Source: a virus
Lineage: Duplodnaviria > Caudoviricetes
Virus record (IMG/VR): IMGVR_UViG_3300022074_000061
Coordinates: 1 to 52,838 of that record
Length of the DNA: 52,838 nucleotides
Strand: one strand, 5' to 3'
The position numbers and the translations under genes are program-made. Shown here piece after piece: positions 1-16,149 of this stretch (within the stretch, counting starts at the first letter, position 1; the number at the start of each line of letters is the position of its first letter). The notes beneath the pieces are model-generated. The model was not told where the DNA came from and ran no database searches. It worked only from the letters and a program-made list of their open reading frames with translations.

Positions 1-2
1 AA

Positions 3-1850
3 TTTATATTTGGTAATATAACTAAAGTAGATAATGGTAAAATTAGACTACTTACTAGTAAAGAATACAATAGATCTAAGGCATCACTATCTAAAGAAGA
101 AAGAGATTACTATGAAATGTACAGAAACGTAACAGCTAGATTATTTCAAGGTCAACAAAGAGCTGGTAATGATGCGTTGTTTTCATATGTACATGGTGCG
201 AGCATGAGATCTTTAGAAGCTATGGACAAGAATGGCATGTTTGGCTTGTATGATATGATTATAGATTCATCCGATTATAATCGTGTTAAGGTAAGGGGTA
301 AAGATTTAGATGGTAAAATAAAACTAAAAACATTCTATGAATGGAAATATGATGTTTATAAAAACAAAAGTACATTCGGTGGATTACGAGAGCTAAATAA
401 ACTTAGAGCAAAAGCTAAAAGATTTAAAAAACAAGGCATTAATGAAGATGGATCAAAAATATTATTATCGGATGTGGAAGTAGATGCGTTGATAAATAAT
501 GGTCAGCTACTACAAAAGATGTTGGATAAAAACATCAGAGGAGCATCTGATATAGATCTTGAAATAATTAAAGAGTATGAAAGACGAAGAGGTGCAGCTA
601 TAGAATTTGCTACTATGGATATCAATACGGCTTTACTTGAGTTTGCCAGAGGTAGTTTATTTTCTAATGGTGATTCAGAGTTTGGGGGTATGAAACAAAC
701 CACTATATTAACTAATGCTGCAATAGCATATAATAAAAATCTTAACAATGAGAATGCAGTTAAGTATTTGACTGAGTGGTGGAAACAGGGTTTTTTAGGT
801 AAACAGCAACAAACAAGTATATTTGGAGAAACAGGCGACAAAGTTATAGATGGATTTGTTAGCCTTACATCATTAAGATTATTAGGATTTAATTTATCAG
901 TTGGTGTTGGTAACTTGTTAGCTGGTAAATATCAAGAACTACGTAAGCGTGGTGGTAGACAATTTATTACAGGAGAAGATAGATATTTTAGAAATAGAGG
1001 TAAGTCATTAGAAATACTTAAAAGGTATAGGGTTATACAGCATAGCTTTGATGACTTTGTTCATTTATCAGAAGGTAAAGGTTTGTGGGGTAAAATAGAA
1101 AAAGCGTCATTTATTTTTATGGATAAAACAGAACACTATATACAAGGTGCTGCATTTCTAGGGTTTCTTACAGATCAAGAGTTTAACACTGGTGAGATTA
1201 GTGAGTTAAGAGTTAGAGAAATAAATAACAAAGTAGCAACATTACATGGTGAGGGCTATACAGCTTTAGACGCATCACTATTATCTATGTATTCATATGG
1301 TAGATCTTTATTGCAGTTTAAGAAATGGTGGCTAACATTATTTGCTGATCGTTTTGGATCAGAGCAGATTAATAGATTTGGCGAGGTAACTATTGGAAGC
1401 TATACCGCAGCCACACAATACACAAGAGACATCTTTCAAAAATATTTTAGAGGTGAGATTACTATGGTAGACTTTTTTGAAGAGTATAAAAAACTATCAC
1501 CTGCACGTCAAGAAGAAATAAAAAGTTTTATGCGGGGTATTGGTATTACTGTAGCAATTTTATCTATGATAGCTATATTAGAAGATGATGATGATCCAGA
1601 TACAGAAGTAATCAAAGCGCTTAAAAAACTAGAAAATGATATATATGCAGCTACAGATATAGATAGATTTATTGGCTATACTGTAATACCCGCATCTATT
1701 GCTACTGGTGAAACGGCAGTTGATTTTATAGGTGAAGTTGCTTTAGATAAAAAAGATAGACTAGGTAGAAGTAAAGCTTTACGTACTCTAAAAACAGAAT
1801 TGATTCCTGGTTCTAGTTTAGTTGAAGGTATAGAAAACCTTATAGACTAA
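3..1850 (+). CDS. C-terminal part (5'-truncated) of a large virion cargo/ejected protein
   Basis: Frame is open from base 3, so the ATG at 117 is internal; helical protein with a LLQFKKWW motif and a late hydrophobic segment; crAss-like phages carry giant cargo/vRNAP-associated genes at this position. Confidence 0.6.
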   Translation, partial: FIFGNITKVDNGKIRLLTSKEYNRSKASLSKEERDYYEMYRNVTARLFQGQQRAGNDALFSYVHGASMRSLEAMDKNGMFGLYDMIIDSSDYNRVKVRGKDLDGKIKLKTFYEWKYDVYKNKSTFGGLRELNKLRAKAKRFKKQGINEDGSKILLSDVEVDALINNGQLLQKMLDKNIRGASDIDLEIIKEYERRRGAAIEFATMDINTALLEFARGSLFSNGDSEFGGMKQTTILTNAAIAYNKNLNNENAVKYLTEWWKQGFLGKQQQTSIFGETGDKVIDGFVSLTSLRLLGFNLSVGVGNLLAGKYQELRKRGGRQFITGEDRYFRNRGKSLEILKRYRVIQHSFDDFVHLSEGKGLWGKIEKASFIFMDKTEHYIQGAAFLGFLTDQEFNTGEISELRVREINNKVATLHGEGYTALDASLLSMYSYGRSLLQFKKWWLTLFADRFGSEQINRFGEVTIGSYTAATQYTRDIFQKYFRGEITMVDFFEEYKKLSPARQEEIKSFMRGIGITVAILSMIAILEDDDDPDTEVIKALKKLENDIYAATDIDRFIGYTVIPASIATGETAVDFIGEVALDKKDRLGRSKALRTLKTELIPGSSLVEGIENLID

Positions 1851-1870
1851 CAATATAAGAAGAAATTTAT

Positions 1871-1878
1871 TAACTTTG
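1871..1878 (+). promoter_or_regulatory. Bacteroidota sigma-A -7 element TAACTTTG
   Basis: Matches TAnnTTTG, 12 nt before ATG 1891. Confidence 0.7.
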
Positions 1879-1890
1879 TAAAAAATTCAA

Positions 1891-2298
1891 ATGGCAAATA
1901 TAGATGATTTATATAATAAAAGCTTTGGTCAGTTAGGATCAGTTTTTACATCTGGTAGTTCTGGAGTAATAACACCACCTTCAAATAAAGTATTTGTAGC
2001 TATACTTATATTAGATCAAAACACTACTTTTGATACACATGGTGGTTTAGTAGCAGATACAAATAAAGGAGATATGCAATATATTACTACAGAAGATGCA
2101 AGCGGTAATGACATATATTCAGGAGGTGCAAATGGAGGATCACATTCAATAGCAGTGGGTTCTGAAACATTAGAGTTTGGTGGTGGAGGTCAAGAGCTTA
2201 CAAACGCACAAACATTTCCTTTAGGAACAACAATAGTTGGAAGATACAAAAGAATAGCAATAAACTCGGGTGCAGTTATAGCGTATATTGGTGACTGA
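1891..2298 (+). CDS. Small beta-rich virion protein (putative fibre/decoration associated)
   Basis: G/T-rich 135 aa ORF translationally coupled to the LamG gene. Confidence 0.45.
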   Translation: MANIDDLYNKSFGQLGSVFTSGSSGVITPPSNKVFVAILILDQNTTFDTHGGLVADTNKGDMQYITTEDASGNDIYSGGANGGSHSIAVGSETLEFGGGGQELTNAQTFPLGTTIVGRYKRIAINSGAVIAYIGD

Positions 2299-3590
2299 TG
2301 TTAAGTTCAGTCAACTCATTAAGTTCAGCAAATTTTAAAAAATCATTTGCAACCACTACAAATAGAGTTCTTCAACTTGATGGAAGTGGTGATTATGTGG
2401 ACGCCTCTACATTAGCATCTTCAATAGGATTTGGACAAGGCTCTGTTAGTGTTTGGGTTAAGATAGACACAACTAGTGGTAATGAAGCATTTTTTAGCGT
2501 ATGTAAAGATGATGATGGAGATAATAAAATAGAATTACAATATATAACAGCTGACGCCCTTTTTAGAGCTATATACAAATCAGAGGGAACAACAAAAAAA
2601 GCTGTTTTAGTAAGATCTAATTCGCAAGTAGAAGCTGATGAGTTTAATCATTTAGGCTTAGTATATAATACTTCAACAGATCAAATTTCTTTATATTTTA
2701 ATGGAACTAGAATTGATCCAGCTACACCAAGTGCTATAACGATAATAGATGAAGGGACAGTAGGGACATTTAACAGGCTTCAATTTGGAAGAGCAGCTGA
2801 TGGAACAGGTGCGTCATCTCATCATGGAAAGCTTGGTGATATGGCTATTTATGATACAGCTCTTACAGATGATCAAATGACAGAAATATATAATGGTGGA
2901 AAAACTTTTAATCATAATGACGGATCTGCAAGTGGTAATTTATTAGCATGGTACAAATTTGGAACAGGTATAGTAGATGGTATACAAGATTCAACATCTG
3001 TTATTTTTAATTTAAAAAGTACAGGCTTGGGATCAGAGCTAGTAGAAAACTCTGATTTAAGTTCACACGGAACTTCTTCAGATCATGCAAGATTAGGATC
3101 TAATTTTAGTATAGATAACTGGATAATAGAAAAAAATAGTGGAGATTCTGGTGTTAGAACATTTACAGCTTTAGATGGGGGTGGTGTAAGGTGTACTATC
3201 AACACACAATGCACATCAGGCTTTCACCAAAGAATATATCATACTGTAAGTAGTGACTTAACTATTGGTGATTTTTATGTATTTAGAGCTGTTATACTTA
3301 CATCAGATGGTAGCAATGTGAGATGTTCTGTGCAAAAATTAACTTCCGCCTCTGATACTACAAATACAACTCATGGCTCTTTTACAACTACAGTAGCTAA
3401 TGTGCCTACAATAGTTGAAAGTGTATTTAAATGTATAGACAATACAGAACAAAGAATACATATATTTCCTTTAACTACAATAAGCGCAGGGGGGTTTTAT
3501 GAAGTTCATTCTGCAAGTTTAAAAAAATATAGTGGTTTTGCTGCTTTTGCAGTTGCTGATGGTAGCTTAGTTTCAACAGGTTTAAGATAA
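2298..3590 (+). CDS. LamG/concanavalin A-like lectin domain fibre protein
   Basis: LQLDGSGDYVD, SVSVWVK, FNHLGLVY, LYFNG, GKLGDMAIYDTALTDDQMTEIYN, LLAWYKF; followed by a CBM-like C-terminal domain. Confidence 0.8.
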   Translation: MLSSVNSLSSANFKKSFATTTNRVLQLDGSGDYVDASTLASSIGFGQGSVSVWVKIDTTSGNEAFFSVCKDDDGDNKIELQYITADALFRAIYKSEGTTKKAVLVRSNSQVEADEFNHLGLVYNTSTDQISLYFNGTRIDPATPSAITIIDEGTVGTFNRLQFGRAADGTGASSHHGKLGDMAIYDTALTDDQMTEIYNGGKTFNHNDGSASGNLLAWYKFGTGIVDGIQDSTSVIFNLKSTGLGSELVENSDLSSHGTSSDHARLGSNFSIDNWIIEKNSGDSGVRTFTALDGGGVRCTINTQCTSGFHQRIYHTVSSDLTIGDFYVFRAVILTSDGSNVRCSVQKLTSASDTTNTTHGSFTTTVANVPTIVESVFKCIDNTEQRIHIFPLTTISAGGFYEVHSASLKKYSGFAAFAVADGSLVSTGLR

Positions 3591-3874
3591 TGTATAATAA
3601 TTATACATATGTAATAGTAGAGTCATCAGAGGTTGATAGTTTAAATTTTGAATCTGATGAAAATGAAAACAGATATTTATTAAATTTAAATAAAAATTTT
3701 TTAAGATATAATGTATCTAAAAATAAAGCAATTGTTAAATATGAAGGTAATGATCCTATATGGCAAGATGAAAATGAAAATGATGTAGATTTTTTTAGTG
3801 GAAAAACAAAATACAATCATGAAGAAATACTTAATGTATTAAAAAGTTCTGAATGGTTACAAATTGATGAATAA
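3590..3874 (+). CDS. Hypothetical protein, LamG-fibre partner
   Basis: 94 aa ORF coupled by TAATG; ends YNHEEILNVLKSSEW. Confidence 0.55.
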   Translation: MYNNYTYVIVESSEVDSLNFESDENENRYLLNLNKNFLRYNVSKNKAIVKYEGNDPIWQDENENDVDFFSGKTKYNHEEILNVLKSSEWLQIDE

Positions 3875-4895
3875 GTTTGTATACATATTACTATTATTTA
3901 GTATCAGTACTAATGCACAAATAAATAAATATTTAAAATTTTCTACATTTTATGTAGCTGCAAATGGAGGGACATCAATATCTGATGTTGATGTATATTC
4001 AATTCAAGATGGGCTGCAAACATCTACAATACAAACACCGTATGATTATAATCTATCACTTGGGGTTAGAAAAATAGCTAGATTTGGTTATGAAAATAGA
4101 GCACAAACTTTTTATGATGGCACAGAAACATCATGGTCTGATGCTTCTACACTTGGAAAGGTTAGTGGCTTAGAGTTTTTATTTGAGTTTAATAAAAAAA
4201 GACAAGAAGGTGATGATTATCTAGATCAACACTATTTTATAAGATATGTTGATAATGATTGGTTAACAAAAGTAGAATATCTACAAGATGGATTTGCAGA
4301 CATACAATACTATGAAGCATCACAAAGATATAGGTATAAATACAACAAACATTTATCATTTAATATTGGTGCTGTTCAACGTATAGCAGAGCCTTATGGC
4401 TATGATCCGTTATCAGAATGGTTACTTGATAATGGCGATATACATTACACTTATCTTGCAATACAAGAGGGATATACAATAGATGTTCATAATAGTGAGT
4501 ATAAAGATCCAAATGGAAATATAGTAGCAACATCATCAGATGTTTGGAAAGAAATAATAATACCTAGAGTATTAAGAGATTATGTTGAAAGAAAAAGAGA
4601 TGAATTACCTGCACAATGGAATCACTCTTTAGTTGTTGGGTATGATTATTATTATTATACAAAAATGTTTTGGTTACATTCTTGGGCTAACTTATTACCA
4701 TGGCACTATGATGCGGGTAATGAATATAGCTATCATAAATATAATAATGGTCAGTGGTTAGATTATTCTGGTGGATTAATATTTGGTTATAAGTATAGTA
4801 AACAATTAGGATTATTTGCTGAAGGTAAGTATAATAAATACTGGAATAGAGAATGGTATGATTTTAAATTAGGTGTTAATTATATATTATTATGA
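3867..4895 (+). CDS. Putative outer-membrane beta-barrel protein
   Basis: Sec signal peptide MNKFVYILLLFSISTNAQ (A-Q cleavage), very Y/W/F-rich alternating strands, C-terminal beta-signal-like DFKLGVNYILL. Confidence 0.65.
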   Translation: MNKFVYILLLFSISTNAQINKYLKFSTFYVAANGGTSISDVDVYSIQDGLQTSTIQTPYDYNLSLGVRKIARFGYENRAQTFYDGTETSWSDASTLGKVSGLEFLFEFNKKRQEGDDYLDQHYFIRYVDNDWLTKVEYLQDGFADIQYYEASQRYRYKYNKHLSFNIGAVQRIAEPYGYDPLSEWLLDNGDIHYTYLAIQEGYTIDVHNSEYKDPNGNIVATSSDVWKEIIIPRVLRDYVERKRDELPAQWNHSLVVGYDYYYYTKMFWLHSWANLLPWHYDAGNEYSYHKYNNGQWLDYSGGLIFGYKYSKQLGLFAEGKYNKYWNREWYDFKLGVNYILL

Positions 4896-5062
4896 AAGCA
4901 AATTGGATAAATGGCTATAAAGCTAATAACAAAAAAGAAGTATACAGAATAGAATTTAGACTTGGTACAATGACATTATTTTATGTTCATTACTGTGCTT
5001 GTGTTGGTGGGACGTGTTCAAGATTTAGATTGATGTTGTTTAACTTTGGAATAGAATTGTAA
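4892..5062 (+). CDS. 56-aa hypothetical protein (not in ORF track), with a CACxxxxC motif
   Basis: MKANWINGYKANNKKEVYRIEFRLGTMTLFYVHYCACVGGTCSRFRLMLFNFGIEL; ATGA and TAATG overlaps with both neighbours. Confidence 0.7.
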   Translation: MKANWINGYKANNKKEVYRIEFRLGTMTLFYVHYCACVGGTCSRFRLMLFNFGIEL

Positions 5063-5343
5063 TGTCAAAAGAACTTAATGAAGATACTAGTTTTAAAGTA
5101 AGTGTAAAAACTCTTATAGCAATAGGGGCTGGATTATCAGCTTTAATAGGTATGTGGTTTACGTTACAGGCAGATATAGCTGAAGCTAAAGAACTACCTG
5201 TATCTACACCAGAAGTTACTCGCATGGAGTTTGATATGAAAGATCAAATGATTAGACAATCAATAATCAACACTGAAGCTAATGTTAAGAAACTTGAAGA
5301 AAGAATGATAAGAATGGAAGATAAAATAGATAAACTGAGATGA
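5062..5343 (+). CDS. Single-TM protein with C-terminal coiled coil
   Basis: TLIAIGAGLSALIGMWFTL followed by heptad-like NVKKLEERMIRMEDKIDKL. Confidence 0.6.
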   Translation: MSKELNEDTSFKVSVKTLIAIGAGLSALIGMWFTLQADIAEAKELPVSTPEVTRMEFDMKDQMIRQSIINTEANVKKLEERMIRMEDKIDKLR

Positions 5344-5678
5344 AAAAATGTTTGAAATTTTTATTTGTATTATTTTTATTTACGGTATATACAGAATGTT
5401 GTTTTTCACAGATAACAGCAATTTACTTTAATGCATCTTGGAACGCTGCGAATGAAGTTGTTTGGTTTGATAAATTAAATGATGTAGAAAAAGAAACTAT
5501 GGATATCGGTAAAGGTGATTGTCAAAAAAAATATAAAATAGCAGTAGTACCTACAATACTACTTATGAAAGATGGAGAAGAGGTTGAAAGATTTCAAGCT
5601 GATTTAAGTTTTAAATTAATGGCTACTAAAAAAGAAATACAAAATATAATTGATGAACTTTTGATGGAAGATTTTTAA
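5340..5678 (+). CDS. Exported thioredoxin-fold protein lacking CxxC
   Basis: Signal peptide; IYFNASWN replaces FxAxWCxxC; cis-Pro loop KYKIAVVPTILLMKDGEEVERF. Confidence 0.7.
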   Translation: MKKCLKFLFVLFLFTVYTECCFSQITAIYFNASWNAANEVVWFDKLNDVEKETMDIGKGDCQKKYKIAVVPTILLMKDGEEVERFQADLSFKLMATKKEIQNIIDELLMEDF

Positions 5679-8011
5679 TGAAAAAATTTATTTTTATATT
5701 ATTAATATTACAGGCTTGCATTGCACCAAAAGAATGTTGTGGTCAAAAACTTGCTGTTTTAAGCTTAACAACCGATCAGTATCCAACAGAAACATCGTGG
5801 TGTTTATTTGCAGATAGTTTATATGGTGATACTATTAGTTTTATTACTCCAGGAGATTTGACATTACCATATCATAATTATGTAGATACATTTTTTATAA
5901 ACGGACCTATTAACACTATTGTTTTTTTAATTAGAGATACTTATGGAGACGGTATGGATGGTAGTTATTATTTATCTGTATGTGGTGATACAATAATTAA
6001 TAAACCTAGTGTTTCGTTTCAAAGTGGTTTATTTTCTACTAGACCAGTGCCGCCATGTTTACCACAACCACCGCCACCTCAGTCAAATAATAACTGTGTG
6101 CCTACATTAATTAATATAAATTTAGATCAGTTTCCAGAAGAAACATCATGGGATATAGTAGATAGTTTAGGAAACACAATAATATCAGGAGGCACATACC
6201 CAAATGTACCAAACTATCAACCACAATTTATTATTAATTGTTTACCAGAAGGTGAGCTTACATTTACAATTTATGATACATATGGTGATGGTCTTCAAGG
6301 ATCACTATGGGGTGGACAAGACGGATCATATTATATAATGCAGTGTGAAGACACTCTTGTATATGGAACAATAGCTAACTTTGGCAATGACACAAGTCAT
6401 GTGTTTATAAGCGATACTTGCATACCACCACCACCTGTATATGGTTGTACAAATGATGACTACGTTGAATATAATCCACTTGCAACGATAGAAGATAGTA
6501 GTTGTGTTACTTTAAAGATATACGGATGTACAGATAGCACTATGTTTAATTATGATAGCTTAGCTAATACAATAGAAAATATAGATCGCTGTACATATGA
6601 TTTAATATTACATGATTTAGTAGGTAATGGTTGGGTTGGAACAAGATTAGAAATATATCAAGAAGATGATACATCTGTATTTTATATGTCAAATGGTTTT
6701 AATCAATATTTTACTATTGATTTATATGCCATAGAAGAAGTAAGCGCAAAACTATTTGTAAGTCAACAAGCGCAAAGCACTGCACTTGAATGTGGCTTTA
6801 CACTAATTAATCCATACGGAGATACTGCATTAAGCATAAGACCACCTTTTGTGGTGCCGTTTAAATTATATGAAGGTGAAACGTATTGCGGCAATAAATG
6901 TGAAGAAAAAATTTATGGGTGTATGGATTCTTTAGCATTTAATTATGTGGACACAGCAAACGTAGAAACTGTTTGTTATTATTATCCAGGATGTATATCA
7001 CCTGCGTATCTTGAATATCATGTGGATACAACAAATGGTTATTTTACAGATATTAATATACAAGATAGCTGTATAACATTAGCTGTATTTGGATGTATGG
7101 ATGATACTATGTCAAACTATAATGCATTAGCTAATGTAGATAATGGTGGATGTATACCTTATGTGTATGGATGTATGGACCCCTTGATGTTTAATTATAA
7201 TGCTTTAGCTACAGCACCAGATACATGTATACCATATTTATATGGGTGTACAGATCCAACTATGTACAATTATGATTTATTTGCAAATACAGATAATGGA
7301 TCATGTGAACCTTATGTATATGGTTGTACAGACAGTACAATGTTTAACTATAATCCTTTAGCCAATGCTGATAACAATACTTGCCTGCCTTATGTCTATG
7401 GTTGCACTGATCCTAGCATGCTCAACTACAACCCACAAGCGAATACAGAAGATTTCAGTTGCATACCTTACATTTACGGTTGTACTGATAGTACTGCCTT
7501 TAATTATGATTCAACAGCTAATACTGATAATGGCTCGTGTGAAGCTATTGTACAAGGATGTATGGACCAATCAGCATATAACTATGACGTTACGGCTAAT
7601 GTTAGTGACAGTACTAACTGCCTTTTTGATGCTGGTTGCGTCACTGGTCCTGGTTCCCCTTATTGGTTAAACGATCTTTGTTATGCTTGGGTAATAGATG
7701 TAGATGAGTATTGTTGTGAAAATGAATGGGATACTATTTGTCAAAGCACATATAATTATTGTTATAATAATTGGAGTGGTCCAATACTAACTAGACAAAT
7801 AGCAGATCTTGATATATATCCTAATCCAACAAAAGGTAAAATATATTTTAGTAAATTTGTAAATGTTGTATTATACAACATATCAGGACAAGAGCTCAAA
7901 AGAAAAAAGAAAGTACAGGAGTTAGATTTATCTAACATGGAAGAAGGACTATATTTAATTGAATTAAAATACAACGAAAGTGTATTTATAAACAAAATTA
8001 TTAAACGTTGA
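5678..8011 (+). CDS. Cys-rich repeat protein with type IX secretion (T9SS type A) C-terminal sorting domain
   Basis: Signal peptide; two DQ[YF]PxETSW...DTYGDG domains; about 11 GC[TM]D-xxxxNY-xxxAN repeats; C-terminus IYPNP...LYNISGQ...DLSNMEEGLYLIEL...KIIKR. Confidence 0.85.
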   Translation: MKKFIFILLILQACIAPKECCGQKLAVLSLTTDQYPTETSWCLFADSLYGDTISFITPGDLTLPYHNYVDTFFINGPINTIVFLIRDTYGDGMDGSYYLSVCGDTIINKPSVSFQSGLFSTRPVPPCLPQPPPPQSNNNCVPTLININLDQFPEETSWDIVDSLGNTIISGGTYPNVPNYQPQFIINCLPEGELTFTIYDTYGDGLQGSLWGGQDGSYYIMQCEDTLVYGTIANFGNDTSHVFISDTCIPPPPVYGCTNDDYVEYNPLATIEDSSCVTLKIYGCTDSTMFNYDSLANTIENIDRCTYDLILHDLVGNGWVGTRLEIYQEDDTSVFYMSNGFNQYFTIDLYAIEEVSAKLFVSQQAQSTALECGFTLINPYGDTALSIRPPFVVPFKLYEGETYCGNKCEEKIYGCMDSLAFNYVDTANVETVCYYYPGCISPAYLEYHVDTTNGYFTDINIQDSCITLAVFGCMDDTMSNYNALANVDNGGCIPYVYGCMDPLMFNYNALATAPDTCIPYLYGCTDPTMYNYDLFANTDNGSCEPYVYGCTDSTMFNYNPLANADNNTCLPYVYGCTDPSMLNYNPQANTEDFSCIPYIYGCTDSTAFNYDSTANTDNGSCEAIVQGCMDQSAYNYDVTANVSDSTNCLFDAGCVTGPGSPYWLNDLCYAWVIDVDEYCCENEWDTICQSTYNYCYNNWSGPILTRQIADLDIYPNPTKGKIYFSKFVNVVLYNISGQELKRKKKVQELDLSNMEEGLYLIELKYNESVFINKIIKR

Positions 8012-8229
8012 GTTTTCTAAACATCTTTAAAGACAATAACAATTATAATGAAAAAACTATAATTGGATTTATAGCTTTTCTAATAATGTGTGTTATTATG
8101 TTTGCTGATCTACTTACAGGTTGGTTTGGTAAAGACCTTATTATTAATGAATTTGTATATGATTCGTTTACTTTAATCGTATTAGGGTGTTTTGGAATAG
8201 CTGGACTAGAAAAATTTGCAAAAAAATAA
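8008..8229 (+). CDS. Small 2-TM membrane protein (holin-like/hypothetical)
   Basis: Two hydrophobic helices and a basic tail; TTG start overlapping the previous stop. Confidence 0.55.
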   Translation: MSFLNIFKDNNNYNEKTIIGFIAFLIMCVIMFADLLTGWFGKDLIINEFVYDSFTLIVLGCFGIAGLEKFAKK

Positions 8230-8390
8230 TGGCTAGAAAAACAGTTAAAGCACCTACAGGATTTCATTGGATGAAAAAAGGCAACAATAGTTATAAGTTA
8301 ATGAAACACACAGGTAAGTTTAAAGCACACAAAGGGGCTAGTTTAAGTGCTAGCTTTGATGTACAGAAAGTTCACAGAAAAAAAAGTTAA
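8229..8390 (+). CDS. Small basic protein (53 aa)
   Basis: Start re-assigned to ATG 8229 (TAATG coupling): MARKTVKAPTGFHWMKKG... Confidence 0.65.
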   Translation: MARKTVKAPTGFHWMKKGNNSYKLMKHTGKFKAHKGASLSASFDVQKVHRKKS

Positions 8391-8391
8391 T

Positions 8392-8556
8392 ATGCCAAAA
8401 GACGCTTGTTATCATAAAGTAGTAGCTAGATATGGTCCAAAGACTTCTGCATATAGAAGTGGTGCAATGGCTAAATGTAGAAAAGTTGGTGCAGCTAACT
8501 GGGGTAATAAATCCAAAAAGAAAGCATCACAGGGTATGAGATTCCAACACGATTAG
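8392..8556 (+). CDS. Small basic protein (54 aa), ends FQHD
   Basis: Start re-assigned to ATG 8392: MPKDACYHKV...SAYRSGAMAKCRKVGAANWG. Confidence 0.7.
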   Translation: MPKDACYHKVVARYGPKTSAYRSGAMAKCRKVGAANWGNKSKKKASQGMRFQHD

Positions 8557-8557
8557 T

Positions 8558-8815
8558 ATGGCTGTTAGAAAAACAAAAGCTGGACTAAGATTAAAGCGTT
8601 GGTTTAAAGAAGATTGGAGAACACCGTCAGGTGAAAAAGATTACAGTAAAGGAGAAAATACATTTAGACCTACTAAACGTATAAGTAAAGATACACCAAA
8701 AACTTGGAGTCAATTATCTCCAGGTGAAAAAAGAGCAGCAGCAAGAGAGAAAAAGAAAAAAGGTAGAGTTAGTAGATATAAAGGTGGAGGAAAATTTTTA
8801 AGACAACTAGATTAA
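8558..8815 (+). CDS. Small basic protein (KRWFKEDW type, DUF5872-like), ends RQLD
   Basis: LKRWFKEDWR...RPTKRISKDTPKTWSQLS; K/R-rich. Confidence 0.65.
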   Translation: MAVRKTKAGLRLKRWFKEDWRTPSGEKDYSKGENTFRPTKRISKDTPKTWSQLSPGEKRAAAREKKKKGRVSRYKGGGKFLRQLD

Positions 8816-8825
8816 ATTTAATATT

Positions 8826-9140
8826 ATGAAACATAAAATGAAAAAAAAGAAAATGTATAAAAAAGGCGGTATGCTAAAGCCAGTTGATTCCAAAAAGAAT
8901 CCAGGTTTAGCTAAACTTCCAAAAGATGTTAGAAATAACATGGGCTTTATGATGTATGGAGGTAAAGTTAAAAAAGCACCAGGCGGAATGATGATGAAAA
9001 AAAGAATGATGAACTATGCTGGTGGTGGTAAAATGCTTAACGGTATGTCTATGCAAAAAGCTGGTAAAGGTATGAAAATGGACTATGGTCACGGTGGTAT
9101 GATGAATAAGCCAGGAGAAGGCTTAAAGCAGCTTGACTAA
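8826..9140 (+). CDS. M/K/G-rich basic low-complexity protein, ends KQLD
   Basis: Repeated xxGG units; NPGLAKLPKDVRNNMGFM. Confidence 0.7.
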   Translation: MKHKMKKKKMYKKGGMLKPVDSKKNPGLAKLPKDVRNNMGFMMYGGKVKKAPGGMMMKKRMMNYAGGGKMLNGMSMQKAGKGMKMDYGHGGMMNKPGEGLKQLD

Positions 9141-9487
9141 TGTCAGAAAAACCTATTAGACGTACAGTAGGTAAAGGAGGTAACTATCGTAAAACAAAGT
9201 CTGGAGCTGGTATGACTCGTAAGGGTGTTGCTGCATATAGAAGAGCAAACCCTGGTAGCAAGCTTAAGACTGCAGTAACGGGCAAAGTTAAACGTGGTAG
9301 TAAAGCAGCCAAACGAAGAAAGTCTTATTGTGCTAGAAGTTTAGGGCAACTTAAACGAAGTAGTGCAAAGACTAGAAATAATCCAAACTCAAGAATAAGA
9401 CAAGCAAGACGTAGGTGGAAATGCGAACATGGGTGTGCAATGCCTGCGAGATCAGGATCTAGAGCTATGTATAGACAATTAGACTAA
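9140..9487 (+). CDS. Small basic protein (RRKSYCARS type), ends RQLD
   Basis: GAGMTRKGVAAYRRANPGSKLKTAVT...RRKSYCARSLGQ...RRRWKC. Confidence 0.7.
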   Translation: MSEKPIRRTVGKGGNYRKTKSGAGMTRKGVAAYRRANPGSKLKTAVTGKVKRGSKAAKRRKSYCARSLGQLKRSSAKTRNNPNSRIRQARRRWKCEHGCAMPARSGSRAMYRQLD

Positions 9488-9687
9488 TGGCAGTATTAAC
9501 AACAATAAATAATATTCCAGTCTATAGTACAGTACAAGAAGCTTTAAACTGGGCAGCATCTAATAATTTATCTGGATATCATACACATATGGTTAATGGT
9601 CAGATAGGATATATGGGTGGGCCAACACATGGGCAGGCCGCAGGATCATCACAAGGACTTAGAGGCAGTAATCAATCTAGTTACTAA
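9487..9687 (+). CDS. Hypothetical protein with GYHTH...YMGGPTH motif
   Basis: Coupled 66 aa ORF; His cluster may bind metal. Confidence 0.55.
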   Translation: MAVLTTINNIPVYSTVQEALNWAASNNLSGYHTHMVNGQIGYMGGPTHGQAAGSSQGLRGSNQSSY

Positions 9688-10079
9688 TGAGTATATTAGG
9701 TAAAATTTTTAGTTCAGGCGCTAGTGATTTAGTAAAAAATGTAGGTGGTGTAATAGATAATTTACACACATCTAAAGAAGAAAAACTAGAAGCACAACGT
9801 AAACTTCAAGAGTTAGTTGCTAACTATGAAGTTGAAATGGAAAAAAATGTAACTGACCGATGGAAGTCAGATATGAATAGTGATTCTTGGTTAAGTAAAA
9901 ATGTAAGACCATTAGTTTTAATATTTTTAGTAGTAAGCACAGTGCTTATGATATTTATAGATGCAGGGAGTATAAGTTTTTCCGTTGAAGAAAAATGGAC
10001 TGACTTATTACAAATAACTTTGATTACAGTAATTGGTGCGTATTTTGGTGGTAGATCATTGGAAAAACGTAAGAGATGA
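9687..10079 (+). CDS. Holin (3TM, GTA_holin-like)
   Basis: DSWLSKNVRP, two TM helices, YFGGRSLEKRKR C-terminus. Confidence 0.75.
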   Translation: MSILGKIFSSGASDLVKNVGGVIDNLHTSKEEKLEAQRKLQELVANYEVEMEKNVTDRWKSDMNSDSWLSKNVRPLVLIFLVVSTVLMIFIDAGSISFSVEEKWTDLLQITLITVIGAYFGGRSLEKRKR

Positions 10080-10348
10080 AATTCAAATGGTTAGTGAAAA
10101 CAGATGATGAAATATATCATGAGTCTATGCAAAATGCATACATATTACTAACACAACAAATTTCATTTGATGAGCTAATAGATTACAATGGTTGCAACCT
10201 TCCATTTCATCCAAGAAAAAAAATAACAAAAAAAATATATAGTTCACTTATTAATTATTTTTGTGAGCTAGAAGAATATGAAAAATGCGCTCAGCTAAAA
10301 AGCGTTATGGATTCAGATAACTATGATAAAAATTTATTAAATTTGTAA
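10076..10348 (+). CDS. Hypothetical protein with UvrB/UvrC-like motif
   Basis: LINYFCELEEYEKCAQLK. Confidence 0.5.
   Translation: MKFKWLVKTDDEIYHESMQNAYILLTQQISFDELIDYNGCNLPFHPRKKITKKIYSSLINYFCELEEYEKCAQLKSVMDSDNYDKNLLNL
10338..10345 (+). promoter_or_regulatory. -7 element TAAATTTG
   Basis: TAnnTTTG before ATG 10361; context nearly identical to 16130. Confidence 0.7.
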
Positions 10349-10360
10349 AAACTTAAAAAA

Positions 10361-10750
10361 ATGGCTAAAAACTATACATTGAATTGTTCTTTAAGCATGG
10401 CAGCTAATTCAGCTACTGGATATTCACAATCACAAAGTGGTAACTATCAACTTAATATTACTGGAGTAGATCAAATAGCTTCAGGCAGAATTGATGTTGC
10501 ACATGACGGTGATGCTACAATTATGGCGGCACCAGGACATGGAAGGGTAATTTACGTTAAAAACTTAGATGACACTAACTTTGTAAAAGTATATGATGGC
10601 GCATCATCTGCAAACGATTTAATTGGTATACTTGAACCAGGTCAATTTTTAATGACAATAATTAGAGGAACAGGAACTACAACAGCAAGAGCTGATACAG
10701 CAACTGTTACAGTAGAATACGCAGCAGTAGAAATAGATTCAAACGCATAA
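10361..10750 (+). CDS. Small virion beta-sandwich protein (paralogue A)
   Basis: IYVKNLD...LEPGQF; similar to 10761 and 42402 products. Confidence 0.55.
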   Translation: MAKNYTLNCSLSMAANSATGYSQSQSGNYQLNITGVDQIASGRIDVAHDGDATIMAAPGHGRVIYVKNLDDTNFVKVYDGASSANDLIGILEPGQFLMTIIRGTGTTTARADTATVTVEYAAVEIDSNA

Positions 10751-10760
10751 AAAATAAAAT

Positions 10761-11189
10761 ATGGCAACTCAATCATTATCAGTAACAGTATCAGGTACAC
10801 TTACATTAACAGATTCAGATGGTAATCAAGTGTTTACTTTTTCACCATCTTTTCAAACAGCATCTAGTACAGTAGATTCAGCATTAATATCAACTGGTGA
10901 AGTATTAACTAACGGAACTAGTGACACTACTATTAATTTAGCAAGACACAATAAAGATATGATATTTACATTTATCAAAAATGTAGATACAGACTATCCT
11001 GTAGCAGTAAAGCCAGATGGTGATGTAATTGCTGATCTTAAACCAGGTGAGTGTATGTTTTCACCAATACATGTTGATGGGGCAGGCGATGGATCAGCTA
11101 ACTTAGATTTAGCCGCTACTACAGCTGCACAAAAAGTTCAATATCTTATTTGTGATGGACCTGACACTGGAATAAGTTCAGATGACTAA
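10761..11189 (+). CDS. Small virion beta-sandwich protein (paralogue B)
   Basis: FIKNVD...LKPGECMF. Confidence 0.55.
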   Translation: MATQSLSVTVSGTLTLTDSDGNQVFTFSPSFQTASSTVDSALISTGEVLTNGTSDTTINLARHNKDMIFTFIKNVDTDYPVAVKPDGDVIADLKPGECMFSPIHVDGAGDGSANLDLAATTAAQKVQYLICDGPDTGISSDD

Positions 11190-11250
11190 AATATAGGGGG
11201 AAAGGCATATATGTAAAGGTTCTCTTAGTACCCCTTAAAAATGTAAAAAA

Positions 11251-11727
11251 ATGAAACTTAAGGTTTTAAGATTTAGTAGCCAGGAGGATAGCACTTCTGG
11301 CTTACTTTTTTTAGATCACAATGATGGTCTTAAATTTCTATGTTATACTCTTGAAGATGAACACAGATCAAAAAAAGTAAGAGGAGAAACAAGAGTACCT
11401 GCTGGTACATATAATTTATCACTTAGAAAAGTAGGAGGCTTTCATGAAAGATATAAAAAGAAATATGGTGCGTTTCATAAAGGAATGTTACAAGTTATGG
11501 ATGTACCAAACTTTGAATATATTCTTATACATACTGGTAACACTGATGAGCATACTGCTGGATGTTTACTTGTTGGTGACTCGCAAGAAAACAACATCAT
11601 TATCAAAGATGGATTTATTGGTAAATCAAATAATGCGTACAAAAGAATATATCCAGATATTGCAAAAGAGATTAAAAAAGGCAATAAAGTAACAATTCAG
11701 TATATTGATTTAGATAACAATGATTAG
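11251..11727 (+). CDS. DUF5675-type L,D-transpeptidase-like endolysin candidate
   Basis: CYTLED, TRVPAGTY, ILIHTGN...TAGCLLVG (His/Cys catalytic motif). Confidence 0.8.
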   Translation: MKLKVLRFSSQEDSTSGLLFLDHNDGLKFLCYTLEDEHRSKKVRGETRVPAGTYNLSLRKVGGFHERYKKKYGAFHKGMLQVMDVPNFEYILIHTGNTDEHTAGCLLVGDSQENNIIIKDGFIGKSNNAYKRIYPDIAKEIKKGNKVTIQYIDLDNND

Positions 11728-16120: not shown

Positions 16121-16129
16121 AAATTTTAT

Positions 16130-16137
16130 TAAATTTG
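16130..16137 (+). promoter_or_regulatory. -7 element TAAATTTG
   Basis: TAnnTTTG 12 nt before ATG 16150. Confidence 0.7.
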
Positions 16138-16149
16138 TAAAAAAAAACA

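What the first reader, a model, noticed from the sequence alone, without database searches (positions are those of the whole stretch)
3867..8229. Phage-encoded envelope cassette: OM barrel, Cys peptide, TM coiled coil, CxxC-less thioredoxin, T9SS cargo and 2-TM protein
Seen: six genes, each overlapping the next (ATGA/TAATG/TTGA); five carry a signal peptide or TM helices. They sit between a fibre gene and the basic-protein/holin genes of an apparently lytic phage. The predicted locations span inner membrane, periplasm, outer membrane and cell surface. Inference: a dedicated host-surface remodelling system (superinfection exclusion, receptor masking, adhesion or aggregation of infected cells, grazer evasion) that uses host Sec, BAM and T9SS. 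I know of no characterised equivalent.
Basis: partly seen in the sequence, partly recalled or inferred. Interest (0 to 1): 0.8.

Follow-up and report, generated by a model that had tools for sequence, protein, structure and literature searches.

The report
Phage module of exported envelope proteins
A marine phage of Bacteroidota carries a tightly packed set of genes for an outer-membrane barrel, an inner-membrane helix, a cysteine-less thioredoxin and a surface protein exported by the host's type IX secretion system, and this set is kept nearly unchanged in hundreds of otherwise very different uncultured phages, so it probably alters the surface of the infected cell.

Summary
Six same-strand genes (3867-8229) overlap start-to-stop, and five have a signal peptide or TM helices.

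- **Core set.** Four genes form a conserved core:
  - G1, a 12-strand outer-membrane barrel.
  - G3, a bitopic inner-membrane protein.
  - G4, a thioredoxin homologue with WNxxN in place of the CxxC site.
  - G5, a Cys-rich modular protein with a type-A T9SS C-terminal domain.
- **Co-occurrence.** All four are present in 35 of 35 related viral loci with at least 5 kb on both sides of G1.
- **Conservation.** G1 stays 64-73% identical where terminase, portal and capsid fall to 22-31%.
- **Export signals.** Signal peptides follow the Bacteroidota Q-rule in 74/75, 60/61 and 42/45 distinct sequences.
- **Domain swap.** In the closest relative, G5's first domain is swapped together with the fibre genes.

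Best reading: an exported, horizontally shared host-envelope module that displays or releases a lectin-like protein. Its function is inferred, not shown. G2 and G6 are facultative. I found no cultured-phage relative and no published description.

The parts
3867..4895 (+). G1: exported 12-strand outer-membrane beta-barrel, 342 aa. Signal peptide residues 1-18. Conserved 75-aa insert between strands 7 and 8 (residues 175-249, nt 4389-4613). Conserved but low-confidence segment at residues 71-99.
   Evidence: AF2 model pLDDT 73.3, pTM 0.68, 12 strands. Foldseek: top hits are NanC, NalP and invasin barrels, and the hits I read down the list are outer-membrane barrels, with 49 at E<=0.001. VIA: Tsx Z 11.9, EstA 11.6, NanC and KdgM 10.9. 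Q-rule-like signal in 74 of 75 distinct homologues. Last residue is F in 47, R in 19 and L in 9 of 75. No Pfam, PHROG or NCBIfam match.
4892..5062 (+). G2: 56-aa protein with no signal peptide or TM segment and a small Cys cluster. Facultative member, probably cytoplasmic.
   Evidence: Found in 25 of 88 loci. 17-sequence alignment with 13 invariant columns. KD19 maximum 1.1.
5062..5343 (+). G3: bitopic inner-membrane protein, 93 aa. Short N-terminal part, TM at about residues 17-35 (nt 5110-5166), Pro-rich linker, then a helical tail of about 50 aa with an invariant R-M-E-x-x-M-K-D stretch (part of the TRMEFDMKD consensus). N-in/C-out topology is inferred.
   Evidence: Alignment of 27 sequences, mean column identity 58%. 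Hydropathy. phrog_12220, function unknown, E 6.5e-5. Nothing in PDB sequences at E<=0.1.
5340..5678 (+). G4: exported thioredoxin-fold protein, 112 aa. WNxxN replaces the WCxxC active site (nt 5427-5453). The cis-Pro 'VVPT' is kept. Conserved C-terminal ...MxDF.
   Evidence: Profile against PDB: 82 thioredoxins, best 2vim_A E 3.6e-9, with Trx's 'cgpc' as an insertion relative to G4. W-NxxN in 54 of 61 distinct sequences and CxxC in 0 of 61. P71 invariant. Q-rule-like signal in 60 of 61. At least 7,994 clusters at E<=0.001, with candidates capped at 8,000.
5678..8011 (+). G5: exported modular Cys-rich protein, 777 aa. Signal peptide with a lipobox-like LQAC followed by CCGQ.
   Evidence: AF2 model pLDDT 67.3. 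38 Cys in the mature part. Q-rule-like signal in 42 of 45 distinct homologues.
5747..6094 (+). G5 domain D1 (residues 24-139): beta-sandwich. This is the part replaced in the closest relative.
   Evidence: The blastn break against L001 falls at window 5749-6094, while the flanks are 93-94% identical. G5[21-140] is 32% identical against 97% for the last 300 aa. Weak fold match to a Ca-dependent carbohydrate-binding module, 2xhh_A, Z 7.6, rmsd 2.8, 92 aligned.
6095..6889 (+). G5 domains D2 (residues 140-250) and D3 (residues 303-404): two further beta-sandwiches joined by a low-confidence linker.
   Evidence: pLDDT about 80-90 in the sandwiches. Foldseek matches multi-C2-domain proteins (ferlins) at very low TM. 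D3 matches the 5-lipoxygenase PLAT domain at Z 6.2. Both are weak.
6890..7801 (+). G5 stalk: nine copies in all of a GC[TM]D...NY...AN...C repeat of about 26 aa, eight of them here (residues 405-640) and one at residue 283 in the D2-D3 linker. This is followed by a highly conserved Cys-rich helical module (residues 641-708).
   Evidence: Repeat list and Cys counts. Invariant C668 W671 D676 C679 C680 W684 D685 C688 C695. The repeats also occur in S-CAM3 cyanophage 'virion structural protein' and in non-secreted proteins of about 1,500 aa in L032 and L053.
7802..8011 (+). G5 C-terminal domain: T9SS type-A sorting domain (residues 709-777) plus the stop codon.
   Evidence: PF18962 at 38.3 bits against 27. 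TIGR04183 at 37 against 23. 43.4 bits in the six-frame search. Fold: FspA CTD 8glj_D Z 7.9, rmsd 2.1, 68 aligned, 31% identity; NucA, RemA, RgpB and PorZ CTDs at Z 7.2-7.8. Foldseek 8glk_D TMt 0.73.
8008..8229 (+). G6: 73-aa protein with two hydrophobic segments and a basic C-terminus, TTG start. Facultative member with a variable position.
   Evidence: Hydropathy peaks 2.76 and 1.79. Found in 10 of 88 loci, after G5 or between G3/G4 or G4/G5. No family above threshold.

Best explanation
The string encodes a phage module of exported proteins that acts on the envelope of a Bacteroidota host.

**Shown by sequence, fold and comparison.**
- G1 is an outer-membrane barrel.
- G3 is a single-pass membrane protein.
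- G4 is a redox-dead thioredoxin-fold protein.
- G5 is a Cys-rich modular protein ending in a type-A T9SS sorting domain.
- G1, G4 and G5 carry Sec signal peptides of the Bacteroidota type, with Q at +1.
- The four genes always travel together and are exchanged between, or held constant across, very different phage lineages.

**Inferred mechanism.**
1. Late in infection the products cross the inner membrane by Sec.
2. G1 is inserted by BAM.
3. G5 folds and forms disulfides in the periplasm, possibly with help from G3 and G4 as a membrane-tethered, non-catalytic chaperone.
4. G5 leaves through the host T9SS.
5. G5's invariant Cys-rich module next to the sorting domain docks on the invariant 75-aa insert of G1, which would face outward if the barrel termini are periplasmic.
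6. A stalk of 26-aa repeats then presents variable lectin-like beta-sandwich domains on the cell surface.
7. The outermost domain is swapped together with the tail-fibre genes. I therefore think it binds the same host-surface structure as the fibres. It would occupy or mask that structure, which gives exclusion of further phages and less loss of progeny on infected cells and debris.

G2 and G6 are facultative extras.
For: **Co-occurrence.**
- G1 has 407 confirmed relatives in IMG/VR, of which the best 80 were kept.
- 35 of 35 loci with at least 5 kb on both sides of G1 hold G1, G3, G4 and G5, all on one strand, spanning a median of 4,345 bp.
- Only two orders occur, G1-[G2]-G3-G4-G5 or [G2]-G3-G4-G5-G1.

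**Decoupling from the phage core.** Ten records were tested.
- Terminase was 80% identical in 1 record, 24-31% in 7, and not found in 2.
- Capsid was tested in 5 records: 78% in 1, 29-31% in 2, none in 2.
- Portal was tested in 5 records: 22-30% in 4, none in 1.
- G1 in those same ten loci is 64-73% identical.

**Export.**
- Q-rule-like signal peptides occur in 74 of 75 G1, 60 of 61 G4 and 42 of 45 G5 distinct sequences, against 5 of 64 window ORFs.
- The Q-rule is specific to Bacteroidetes SPase I substrates (abstracts of PMC5837995 and PMC10653852).

**Folds.** G1 barrel; G5 C-terminal domain against translocon-bound CTDs; G4 thioredoxin without CxxC.

**Host.** The 194 GenBank phage records that match the terminase (about 29% identity in the rows listed) are, where a host is named in the tally, mainly phages of Bacteroidota: Flavobacterium 97, Bacteroides 30, Cellulophaga, Tenacibaculum and crAss-like.

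**Specificity.** Against the closest relative, DNA is 89-94% identical except at the fibre genes (2396-3807), G5 domain D1 (5749-6094) and the distal long fibre (beyond 12229). A second pair (L034/L044, G1 91%) also differs in the G5 N-terminus, at 24%.

**Not a host gene.** Only 6 contigs among 185,579 species genomes match. All are in MAGs, carrying five unrelated taxonomic labels.
Against: - No step of localisation, secretion, binding or phenotype was tested. The host is unknown.
- The genes sit in the late structural and lysis block. Classical exclusion genes are usually expressed early or from prophages.
- Only 14 of 39 G5 homologues reach Pfam's T9SS domain at E<=0.001. The other 25 end in a short tail of about 45 aa whose competence for T9SS is unknown.
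- The domain swap rests on 2 of 25 locus pairs with G1 at 88% or more. The other 23 pairs show no swap.
- The G5 N-terminal fold matches are weak (Z 6-7.6).
- G1's orientation, and therefore the side on which its insert lies, is inferred from strand parity in a model of pLDDT 73.
- G5 shares no domain with the window's own fibre proteins.
Confidence: 0.45

Rival explanations
1. Lysis accessory. The module is the outer-membrane step of lysis in Bacteroidota hosts. An inner-membrane protein (G3), a periplasmic link (G4) and an outer-membrane barrel (G1) would do the job of spanins or a disruptin. G5 would be an added passenger.
For: - No recognisable spanin pair was seen among the proteins scanned around the holin.
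- The module lies in the same overlapping late block as the holin (phrog_3427) and a DUF5675 protein.
- A holin homologue lies within 6 kb downstream in 11 of 24 informative loci and within 1.5 kb in 4 of 24.
- Like the module, the holin stays 73-84% identical across lineages, which is the usual behaviour of host-specific lysis genes.
- 12-strand barrels include the membrane-active enzymes OMPLA and LpxR, both at Z 8.8.
Against: - G3's periplasmic part is only about 58 aa, far shorter than i-spanins (lengths recalled, not measured here).
- There is no small lipoprotein partner.
- A conserved secreted protein of 630-1,130 aa with lectin-like domains and a T9SS tail has no role in any known lysis scheme.
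- 13 of 24 informative loci show no holin homologue within 6 kb.
- The OMPLA and LpxR matches do not stand above other 12-strand barrels.
Confidence: 0.17
2. Adhesion or substrate binding rather than receptor masking. G5 is a secreted or surface lectin that binds algal or particle polysaccharide, or neighbouring host cells. Infected cells would then stay on particles or in aggregates where new hosts are dense. Alternatively it helps nutrient capture late in infection, with G1 acting as a channel.
For: - G5's first domain resembles a Ca-dependent carbohydrate-binding module (2xhh_A, Z 7.6), and D1-D3 resemble C2/PLAT sandwiches.
- The G1 barrel class includes the solute channels Tsx, NanC and KdgM, which are its best matches.
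- Marine Flavobacteriia secrete many polysaccharide-binding proteins by T9SS (search listings).
Against: - The fold matches are weak, and no CAZyme or CBM family was hit by sequence.
- The swap of D1 together with the fibre genes fits host-surface specificity better than substrate binding.
- The strong conservation of G1, G3 and G4 is not explained.
Confidence: 0.18
3. Virion parts. G5, and perhaps G1, are fibre or decoration proteins of the particle. The N-terminal hydrophobic stretches and the Ig-like C-terminal domain would be structural, not export signals.
For: - The module lies among fibre-like genes.
- G5's repeats occur in a cyanophage protein annotated 'virion structural protein' and in non-secreted proteins of about 1,500 aa in related phages.
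- D1 is swapped like a receptor-binding domain.
Against: - Signal peptides with Q at +1 are conserved in nearly all homologues of three different proteins.
- G1 folds as a membrane barrel with an aromatic C-terminus in 47 of 75 sequences.
- The C-terminal domain matches secretion-competent CTDs seen inside the T9SS translocon, at 31% identity to the FspA CTD.
- There is no PHROG structural family for any of the six.
- Tailed phages assemble in the cytoplasm (established knowledge).
Confidence: 0.07

Closest known systems
T9SS type-A cargo proteins of Bacteroidota (e.g. F. johnsoniae FspA, NucA, RemA; P. gingivalis RgpB)
   Same: G5 has a Sec signal peptide, a modular extracellular body, and a C-terminal Ig-like sorting domain of about 70 aa above the Pfam and TIGRFAM cut-offs. 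That domain superposes on CTDs solved inside the translocon.
   Different: It is encoded by a lytic-looking phage, not a cell. Its body has no known family. Most phage homologues carry a shortened tail. Secretion was not tested.
PorP/SprF-type barrels encoded next to T9SS cargo genes (SprF-SprB pairing; the pairing is recalled, not from a call)
   Same: An outer-membrane barrel of 310-350 aa encoded beside a T9SS cargo gene. It would work alike if G1 anchors G5.
   Different: There is no sequence relationship. PF11751 is absent at E<=0.1, and the profile-profile probability is 1.1% against six PorP/SprF proteins from two Bacteroidota MAGs. PorP/SprF partners serve type-B CTDs (recalled), whereas G5 has type A.
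Lambda Lom, and outer-membrane barrels of huge phages
   Same: These are phage-encoded, signal-peptide-bearing outer-membrane barrels proposed or shown to change the receptor landscape. Lom binds LamB and blocks superinfection. 1,603 OMPs were reported in 1,303 huge phages (passages of preprint 10.64898/2026.10.24.761521). BFVD also lists phage porins, autotransporter beta-domains and OmpA-like proteins.
   Different: G1 has 12 strands with a conserved insert and belongs to no named family. It is one part of a fixed four-gene set that includes a secretion-system cargo. The phage is about 53-68 kb, not huge. The preprint does not mention T9SS (0 occurrences).
Sortase B plus substrate modules of huge gut phages
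   Same: This is a phage-borne cassette that uses a host-type sorting route to display phage proteins on the cell surface (abstract and discussion passages).
   Different: The hosts are Gram-positive and anchoring is covalent to the cell wall by a phage-encoded enzyme. Here the phage brings only cargo and accessory proteins and relies on the host's T9SS.
Q-rule signal-peptide proteins of Porphyromonas gingivalis prophages
   Same: These are phage genes of unknown function whose signal peptides expose an N-terminal Gln. The authors take this as adaptation to the host's secretion system and as potential to modify the outer membrane (passage of PMC10367356).
   Different: They are from temperate oral phages and are single genes. 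That paper's text has no mention of T9SS or CTD (0 occurrences).
Thioredoxin (PF00085)
   Same: G4 is a true sequence homologue, with the fold's cis-Pro retained.
   Different: The catalytic CxxC is absent in 0 of 61 cases. G4 is exported to the periplasm and has a conserved C-terminal helix ending in F. It therefore cannot be an oxidoreductase of the usual kind.

Membership tests
T9SS type-A cargo (G5) | C-terminal domain matching PF18962 / TIGR04183 above the curated cut-off | tested here: met
   38.3 bits against 27; 37 against 23; 43.4 bits in the six-frame search. For the wider family, only 14 of 39 homologues match at E<=0.001.
T9SS type-A cargo (G5) | Ig-like beta-sandwich fold of the C-terminal domain like solved CTDs | tested here: met
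   8glj_D FspA CTD at Z 7.9, rmsd 2.1, 68 of 75 aligned, 31% identity. NucA, RemA, RemZ, RgpB and PorZ CTDs at Z 7.2-7.8. Foldseek 8glk_D TMt 0.73, rmsd 2.3. Generic FN3 domains score Z 6-7 as well.
T9SS type-A cargo (G5) | N-terminal Sec signal peptide | tested here: met
   My own heuristic (hydrophobic stretch, then a small residue, then Q) is met in the window and in 42 of 45 distinct homologues. SignalP was not available.
T9SS type-A cargo (G5) | Secretion dependent on a host T9SS, with CTD removal | not testable with these tools
   The host is unknown. A Bacteroidota host is inferred from terminase relatives and the Q-rule.
PorP/SprF (PF11751) (G1) | Sequence match to the family | tested here: not met
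   No Pfam family at E<=0.1. hhalign of the G1 profile against six PorP/SprF proteins gives probability 1.1%.
PorP/SprF (PF11751) (G1) | Same barrel fold | tested here: inconclusive
   No PorP/SprF chain appeared among the fold-search rows. Absence from a list does not exclude it.
Outer-membrane beta-barrel protein (G1) | Signal peptide plus a closed antiparallel barrel with an even number of strands | tested here: met
   12 strands in the AF2 model, pLDDT 73.3. 49 Foldseek hits at E<=0.001, led by outer-membrane barrels. Tsx at Z 11.9 over 196 residues.
Outer-membrane beta-barrel protein (G1) | C-terminal aromatic residue (BAM beta-signal) | tested here: inconclusive
   The window protein ends in L. 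Among 75 distinct family members, 47 end in F, 19 in R and 9 in L.
Thioredoxin (G4) | Sequence homology to the thioredoxin fold, including the cis-Pro | tested here: met
   The profile hits 82 PDB thioredoxins, best E 3.6e-9. P71 is invariant. The single window sequence is below Pfam's cut-off, 17.6 against 23.5.
Thioredoxin (G4) | CxxC active site | tested here: not met
   0 of 61 distinct sequences have CxxC in the mature part. 54 of 61 have W-NxxN at the aligned site.
Two-component spanins (G3 plus a partner) | i-spanin with an N-terminal TM and a long periplasmic coiled coil, plus an outer-membrane lipoprotein o-spanin encoded within or beside it | tested here: not met
   G3 has the TM but only about 58 periplasmic residues. 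No small lipobox protein lies in or next to it. No spanin PHROG was hit.
Ail/Lom family (G1) | Eight-strand barrel matching the Pfam family | tested here: not met
   No Pfam match. The model has 12 strands.

The most novel reading that the evidence does not exclude
The module is a phage-built surface-display device. The infected cell is made to export, through its own T9SS, a 'cell-borne fibre mimic' (G5). G5 would be held on a dedicated phage barrel (G1). Its tip domain would co-evolve with the virion's fibres and bind the phage's own receptor, shutting the infected cell and its debris to further adsorption. Because it works through conserved host machinery, the same device would be passed between unrelated phage families that share hosts.
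Probability: 0.22. Interest if true: 0.85.

Novelty: new variant of a known kind. Interest (0 to 1): 0.66.

Why it matters
**What would be new.** Phage genes that re-dress the host surface are known one at a time: Lom, Llp and Cor (the latter two recalled), and the outer-membrane barrels of huge phages. This would instead be a fixed multi-protein set that spans all envelope layers. It would also be the first I could find in which a phage supplies cargo for the type IX secretion system. My full-text searches found no such description. The huge-phage envelope preprint does not mention T9SS.

**How common it is.**
- G1 has 407 confirmed relatives in IMG/VR.
- The G1 profile hits 413 cluster representatives.
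- G4 has at least 7,994 clusters.
- The stretch occurs in virus-fraction metagenomes of at least eight studies besides the likely source.

**Why the conservation is notable.** The module is better conserved than capsid and terminase across lineages.

**What it opens up.** The module is a direct, testable handle on three questions: how marine Flavobacteriia phages manage the infected cell's surface, what their receptors are, and how T9SS selects cargo, including the shortened tail.

Tried and rejected
- **Misread coordinates.** The DNA hits were given in query coordinates (query = window 3000-9000). I first read them as G3/G4 matches to pelagiphage and cyanophage genes. Translation, BLASTP and alignment showed that they lie at window 8224-8369 and 8378-8527, in the basic-protein genes. 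They say nothing about the cassette.
- **Complex prediction.** I submitted G1 (19-342), the G3 tail (36-93) and mature G4. The score was 0.00 against a mark of 0.32, with no verdict. This is no evidence either way.
- **PorP/SprF kinship of G1.** Rejected by sequence.
- **Family scans of G1 and G2.** Pfam, PHROG and NCBIfam gave nothing.
- **tblastn against 50,697 GenBank phage records.** G1, G3 and G4 gave no match. G5 matched only through its repeats.
- **ESM Atlas for G5 residues 20-420.** Only unnamed viral clusters came back. MAM at 0.80 is below the lead threshold.
- **PDB sequence searches.** G5 gave only its CTD at E 0.077. G3 gave nothing better than E 0.48.
- **Promoter and terminator scan of 1-17500.** There were fewer sigma-70-like sites than in shuffles (79 against 100.5). 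The terminator-like sites were mostly inside genes. Bacteroidota promoters are not covered by this tool.
- **RNA-library contigs.** Runs X17 and X18 (one sample) and X19 hold near-identical pieces of about 150-340 nt of G1, G3, G5 and the basic-protein genes. Contigs in RNA libraries do not prove transcription, so I do not count this as evidence of expression.
- **The CxxPKxCCxQ motif after the signal peptide.** It occurs in G1 in 19 loci, in G5 in 4, in both in 0 and in neither in 24, out of 47. I could not interpret it; it may be a lipobox.
- **G5 against the window's own ORFs.** No paralogue was found in the fibre genes.
- **Supplementary tables.** Those of the cited papers were not seen. 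Supplementary Tables 7 and 10 of the huge-phage preprint could list related barrels.

Full report
**1. What is there**

The window is a phage. It encodes a large terminase (phrog_6681, E 2.1e-94), a portal (phrog_6547), a major head protein (phrog_11589), a 1,899-aa virion protein and a lytic tail protein. It also encodes a holin (phrog_3427, E 1.2e-32), a 1,466-aa fibre and an exonuclease. It is itself an IMG/VR virus record, classed linear and 78% complete. No tyrosine integrase was found. That is the only lysogeny marker I tested, and the record is incomplete.

From about 29.7 kb through the record's end to about 17.3 kb, all long ORFs are on the + strand. The six genes of the finding lie in this block.

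| Gene | Coordinates | Length |
|---|---|---|
| G1 | 3867-4895 | 342 aa |
| G2 | 4892-5062 | 56 aa |
| G3 | 5062-5343 | 93 aa |
| G4 | 5340-5678 | 112 aa |
| G5 | 5678-8011 | 777 aa |
| G6 | 8008-8229 | 73 aa |

The junctions are ATGA, TAATG, ATGA, TAATG and TTGA. The overlaps continue on both sides. The upstream 94-aa ORF ends inside G1, and the next gene starts with TAATG at 8229. Overlap alone therefore does not delimit a unit.

**2. The parts**

*G1.* No Pfam, PHROG or NCBIfam family matches.
- With a 44-sequence alignment, AlphaFold2 gives a 12-strand barrel (pLDDT 73.3, pTM 0.68). It has a 75-residue alpha/beta insert between strands 7 and 8 and a low-confidence segment at residues 71-99.
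- Foldseek returns 49 PDB hits at E<=0.001, led by NanC, the NalP translocator and the invasin beta-domain; the rows I read down the list are outer-membrane barrels.
- The Foldseek-independent search gives Tsx at Z 11.9 (196 aligned), EstA at 11.6, NanC and KdgM at 10.9, and OMPLA and LpxR at 8.8. This fixes the class, a 12-strand outer-membrane barrel, but no family.
- Both the insert and the 71-99 segment are among the most conserved stretches (invariant E175 P176 Y177 G178 Y179 ... H193 Y194 T195; R68 K69 R72 E76).
- If both termini are periplasmic, as in BAM substrates, strand parity puts the insert outside the cell and the 71-99 segment in the periplasm. This is inference from a moderate model.
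- BFVD holds one unnamed viral protein of the same length and fold (A0A516LKJ4, TM 0.67, 22% identity). It also holds other phage-encoded porins, autotransporter beta-domains and OmpA-like proteins.

*G3.* It has a short polar N-terminus, one TM segment (about residues 17-35), a Pro-rich linker and a helical tail of about 50 residues with an invariant R-M-E-x-x-M-K-D stretch (part of the TRMEFDMKD consensus). It hits only an unannotated PHROG (phrog_12220, E 6.5e-5) and nothing in PDB sequences.

*G4.* It is a thioredoxin homologue.
- The family profile hits 82 solved thioredoxins, the best being 2vim_A at E 3.6e-9. In that alignment Trx's 'cgpc' appears as an insertion relative to G4.
- The cis-Pro is invariant.
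- None of 61 distinct sequences has CxxC in the mature part, and 54 of 61 have W-NxxN at the site.
- It has a signal peptide and a conserved C-terminal helix ending in F.

*G5.* The model (pLDDT 67.3) and the sequence analyses show these regions in order:
- a signal peptide;
- three beta-sandwich domains (residues 24-139, 140-250 and 303-404);
- nine copies in all of a Cys-containing repeat of about 26 aa (eight between residues 405 and 640, one at residue 283);
- a Cys-rich helical module (residues 641-708) with many invariant residues;
- a C-terminal domain (residues 709-777).

The C-terminal domain is a type-A T9SS sorting domain by sequence. It is one by fold as well: FspA CTD in the F. 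johnsoniae translocon at Z 7.9, rmsd 2.1 and 31% identity, and NucA, RemA, RemZ, RgpB and PorZ CTDs at Z 7.2-7.8; Foldseek gives 8glk_D at TMt 0.73.

The N-terminal sandwiches match only weakly. D1 matches a Ca-dependent carbohydrate-binding module at Z 7.6. The others match C2/PLAT domains at Z 6-7 or at very low TM. 'Lectin-like' is therefore a lead, not a finding.

*G2.* It is conserved (13 invariant columns in 17 sequences) but has no export signal.

*G6.* It has two hydrophobic segments.

**3. Is it a unit?**

*Co-occurrence.* A scan of IMG/VR with G1 found 419 candidate stretches. Of these, 407 were confirmed, and the best 80 were kept as loci at 61-97% identity. A scan with G4 added 8 further loci.

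tblastn of the window's proteins against all 88 loci gave these counts. The 88 include four second fetches of contigs already held and one weak G4-only locus.

| Protein | Loci with a match (of 88) |
|---|---|
| G1 | 86 |
| G3 | 77 |
| G4 | 75 |
| G5 | 70 |
| G2 | 25 |
| G6 | 10 |
| Each flanking window gene | 7-23 |

*Misses.* The misses for G3, G4 and G5 are loci cut close to G1. Among the 83 loci left after dropping those five, 35 have at least 5 kb on both sides of G1. All 35 have all four genes on one strand, and across the 63 loci that hold all four genes they span a median of 4,345 bp.

*Gene order.* G3-G4-G5 is a constant triad. G1 stands before it or after it, and G2 follows G1 or precedes G3.

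*Near-absence from cellular genomes.* Only 6 contigs among 185,579 species genomes match. All are in MAGs labelled Parvibaculum, Sphingobacteriales, Nitrosopelagicus, Flavobacteriales, Rickettsiales or 'uncultured bacterium', which looks like mis-binned phage DNA.

*Wider family.* The G1 profile finds 413 cluster representatives at E<=0.001, of which 55 are at <=1e-30. The ten clusters I looked up are unnamed marine metagenome proteins on contigs of at most 45 kb. No GenBank phage record has G1, G3 or G4.

**4. The module is decoupled from the phage backbone**

I searched ten of the related virus records (43-120 kb) for the window's core proteins.

| Core protein | Records tested | Result |
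|---|---|---|
| Terminase | 10 | 80% identical in 1, 24-31% in 7, not found in 2 |
| Capsid | 5 | 78% in 1, 29-31% in 2, none in 2 |
| Portal | 5 | 22-30% in 4, none in 1 |

In the same ten loci G1 is 64-73% identical, and G3 and G4 are about 45-75%. In the one record of the same lineage (terminase 80%), G1 is only 67%.

G1 divergence is thus nearly flat while the backbone ranges from close to barely recognisable. This is what exchange of a host-directed module between phage lineages would give, or else very strong constraint. The holin (73-84%) and two small proteins downstream behave the same way.

**5. Host and export**

*Terminase relatives.* The GenBank phages nearest by terminase (about 29% identity in the rows listed) are crAss-like, Flavobacterium, Bacteroides, Cellulophaga and Tenacibaculum phages.

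*The Q-rule.* In Bacteroidetes, but not in related phyla, signal peptidase I cleavage exposes an N-terminal glutamine in most substrates (abstracts of PMC5837995 and PMC10653852). My heuristic for this looks for a hydrophobic stretch followed by a small residue and then Q.
- It is met by 74 of 75 G1, 60 of 61 G4 and 42 of 45 G5 distinct sequences.
- The failures are one wrong start call, one divergent sequence, and three with T at position -1.
- In the window, 5 of 64 ORFs of 80 aa or more meet it, and three of those are G1, G4 and G5.

A host-phylum-specific signal conserved on three unrelated proteins is hard to square with decayed or structural N-termini.

*Other observations.*
- Forty-seven of 75 G1 sequences end in F, the usual barrel C-terminus. 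The window's own G1 ends in L.
- P. gingivalis prophages were reported to carry Q-rule proteins of unknown function (passage of PMC10367356). That text does not mention T9SS.

*A caveat on 'T9SS cargo' for the whole family.* Only 14 of 39 G5 homologues match Por_Secre_tail at E<=0.001. The other 25 end in a conserved tail of about 45 aa that resembles the last strands of the domain but lacks its first half. By locus, 19 have the full domain and 28 the short tail, out of 47.

**6. A pointer to function**

The closest relative (L001; G1 97%, G3 100%, G4 98%) is 89-94% identical in DNA over window 1-2395, 3808-5748 and 6095-12228. Similarity breaks at three places only:
- 2396-3807, the Laminin_G_3 lectin-type fibre gene and its small neighbour;
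- 5749-6094, which is exactly G5 domain D1;
- beyond 12229, the distal part of the long fibre.

G5 residues 21-140 are 32% identical against 97% for the last 300 residues. A second pair (L034/L044, G1 91%) also differs in the G5 N-terminus, at 24% identity and lengths of 686 against 1,070 aa. The other 23 pairs with G1 at 88% or more show no swap.

D1 therefore behaves like a specificity determinant exchanged together with receptor-binding genes. The sample is small. G5 has no paralogue among the window's own fibre genes. Its repeats occur in fibre-like virion proteins of other phages.

**7. Reading**

*What I take as shown.* This is a conserved, mobile, four-gene module of exported proteins. 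Their sequence signals and folds point to the inner membrane, periplasm, outer membrane and T9SS of a Bacteroidota host.

*What I infer.* G5 is displayed on, or released from, the infected cell. G1 may be its anchor, because the invariant G1 insert and the invariant G5 module next to the sorting domain are natural partner sites. G3 and G4 may be a tethered, redox-dead helper for the 38-Cys cargo. The tip may bind the structure that the fibres recognise, which would give exclusion and protect progeny from readsorption. I give this 0.45.

*Rivals.*
- A lysis role (0.17): the module is near a holin in 11 of 24 informative loci, and no spanin was seen. But G5 is then unexplained, and G3 is too short.
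- Adhesion or substrate binding (0.18).
- Virion parts (0.07), against which stand the conserved export signals.

*Related background.* Phage resistance in Flavobacterium maps to gliding and T9SS genes (titles and abstracts only). This makes T9SS-delivered surface proteins plausible receptors, but it does not bear directly on this module.

**8. Occurrence in nature**

The 4.7-kb stretch is held at half or more of its sampled words by 16 runs. Most are labelled viral metagenomes. Apart from the likely source, they come from at least eight studies. A non-source run covers the region in pieces with 0-2 differences. Short near-identical pieces occur in contigs of three RNA libraries from two studies. 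This does not prove transcription.

**9. Novelty**

Phage-encoded outer-membrane barrels and surface-display cassettes are known kinds: Lom, and the huge-phage OMPs and sortase B modules (passages of preprint 10.64898/2026.10.24.761521). My full-text searches found no description of a phage-borne T9SS cargo or of this gene set. Supplementary tables were not available to me. I therefore file it as a new variant of a known kind, of above-average interest because of its abundance, its fixed architecture and its conservation across phage lineages.

Noticed in passing
window 8229-9487 (five small basic-protein genes): The first gene (from 8229) is 79-81% identical in DNA over about 132-146 nt to hypothetical genes of Pelagibacter phages HTVC103P and HTVC104P. 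The next gene (8378-8527) is 70-81% identical to genes of T4-like cyanophages, one of them annotated 'virion protein'. The fifth carries DUF6321 (44.6 bits). These are small basic proteins shared at the DNA level by phages of three host phyla.
   Followed up: partly
N-termini of G1 and G5 homologues (window 5678-5746; loci L007, L029 and others): A conserved C-x(2,3)-P-K-x-C-C-x-Q motif sits between the hydrophobic core and the Q. It begins with a lipobox-like L-x-[AS]-C. It occurs in G1 in 19 loci, in G5 in 4, never in both, and in neither in 24, out of 47 loci. It could mark lipoprotein versions of the barrel or the cargo.
   Followed up: partly
C-termini of G5 homologues in 25 of 39 aligned sequences (e.g. 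L018, L029, L033): A short conserved tail of about 45 aa replaces the full T9SS sorting domain. It keeps what look like the domain's last strands. It could be a minimal T9SS signal or a different sorting device.
   Followed up: partly
window 11251-11727: A DUF5675 protein (97.2 bits; phrog_1501, function unknown) lies just downstream of the holin region. It has a conserved H...G-C stretch. It may be the endolysin, but I did not test this.
   Followed up: no
window 10361-11189 and related loci: Two small proteins (129 and 142 aa, with no family) are 62-100% identical across phages whose terminase is only 24-31% identical. They are conserved like the cassette and the holin.
   Followed up: no
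window 1-1850 and 51205-52836: ORFs run off both ends of the record. In the closest relative (L001), the 6.3 kb upstream of the point matching window position 1 has no blastn match anywhere in the window. This agrees with the 78% completeness estimate.
   Followed up: no
loci L047 and L076 (G5 homologues): The G5 reading frames contain 1 and 2 internal stop codons. These could be sequencing errors or decaying copies. I left them out of the alignments.
   Followed up: no
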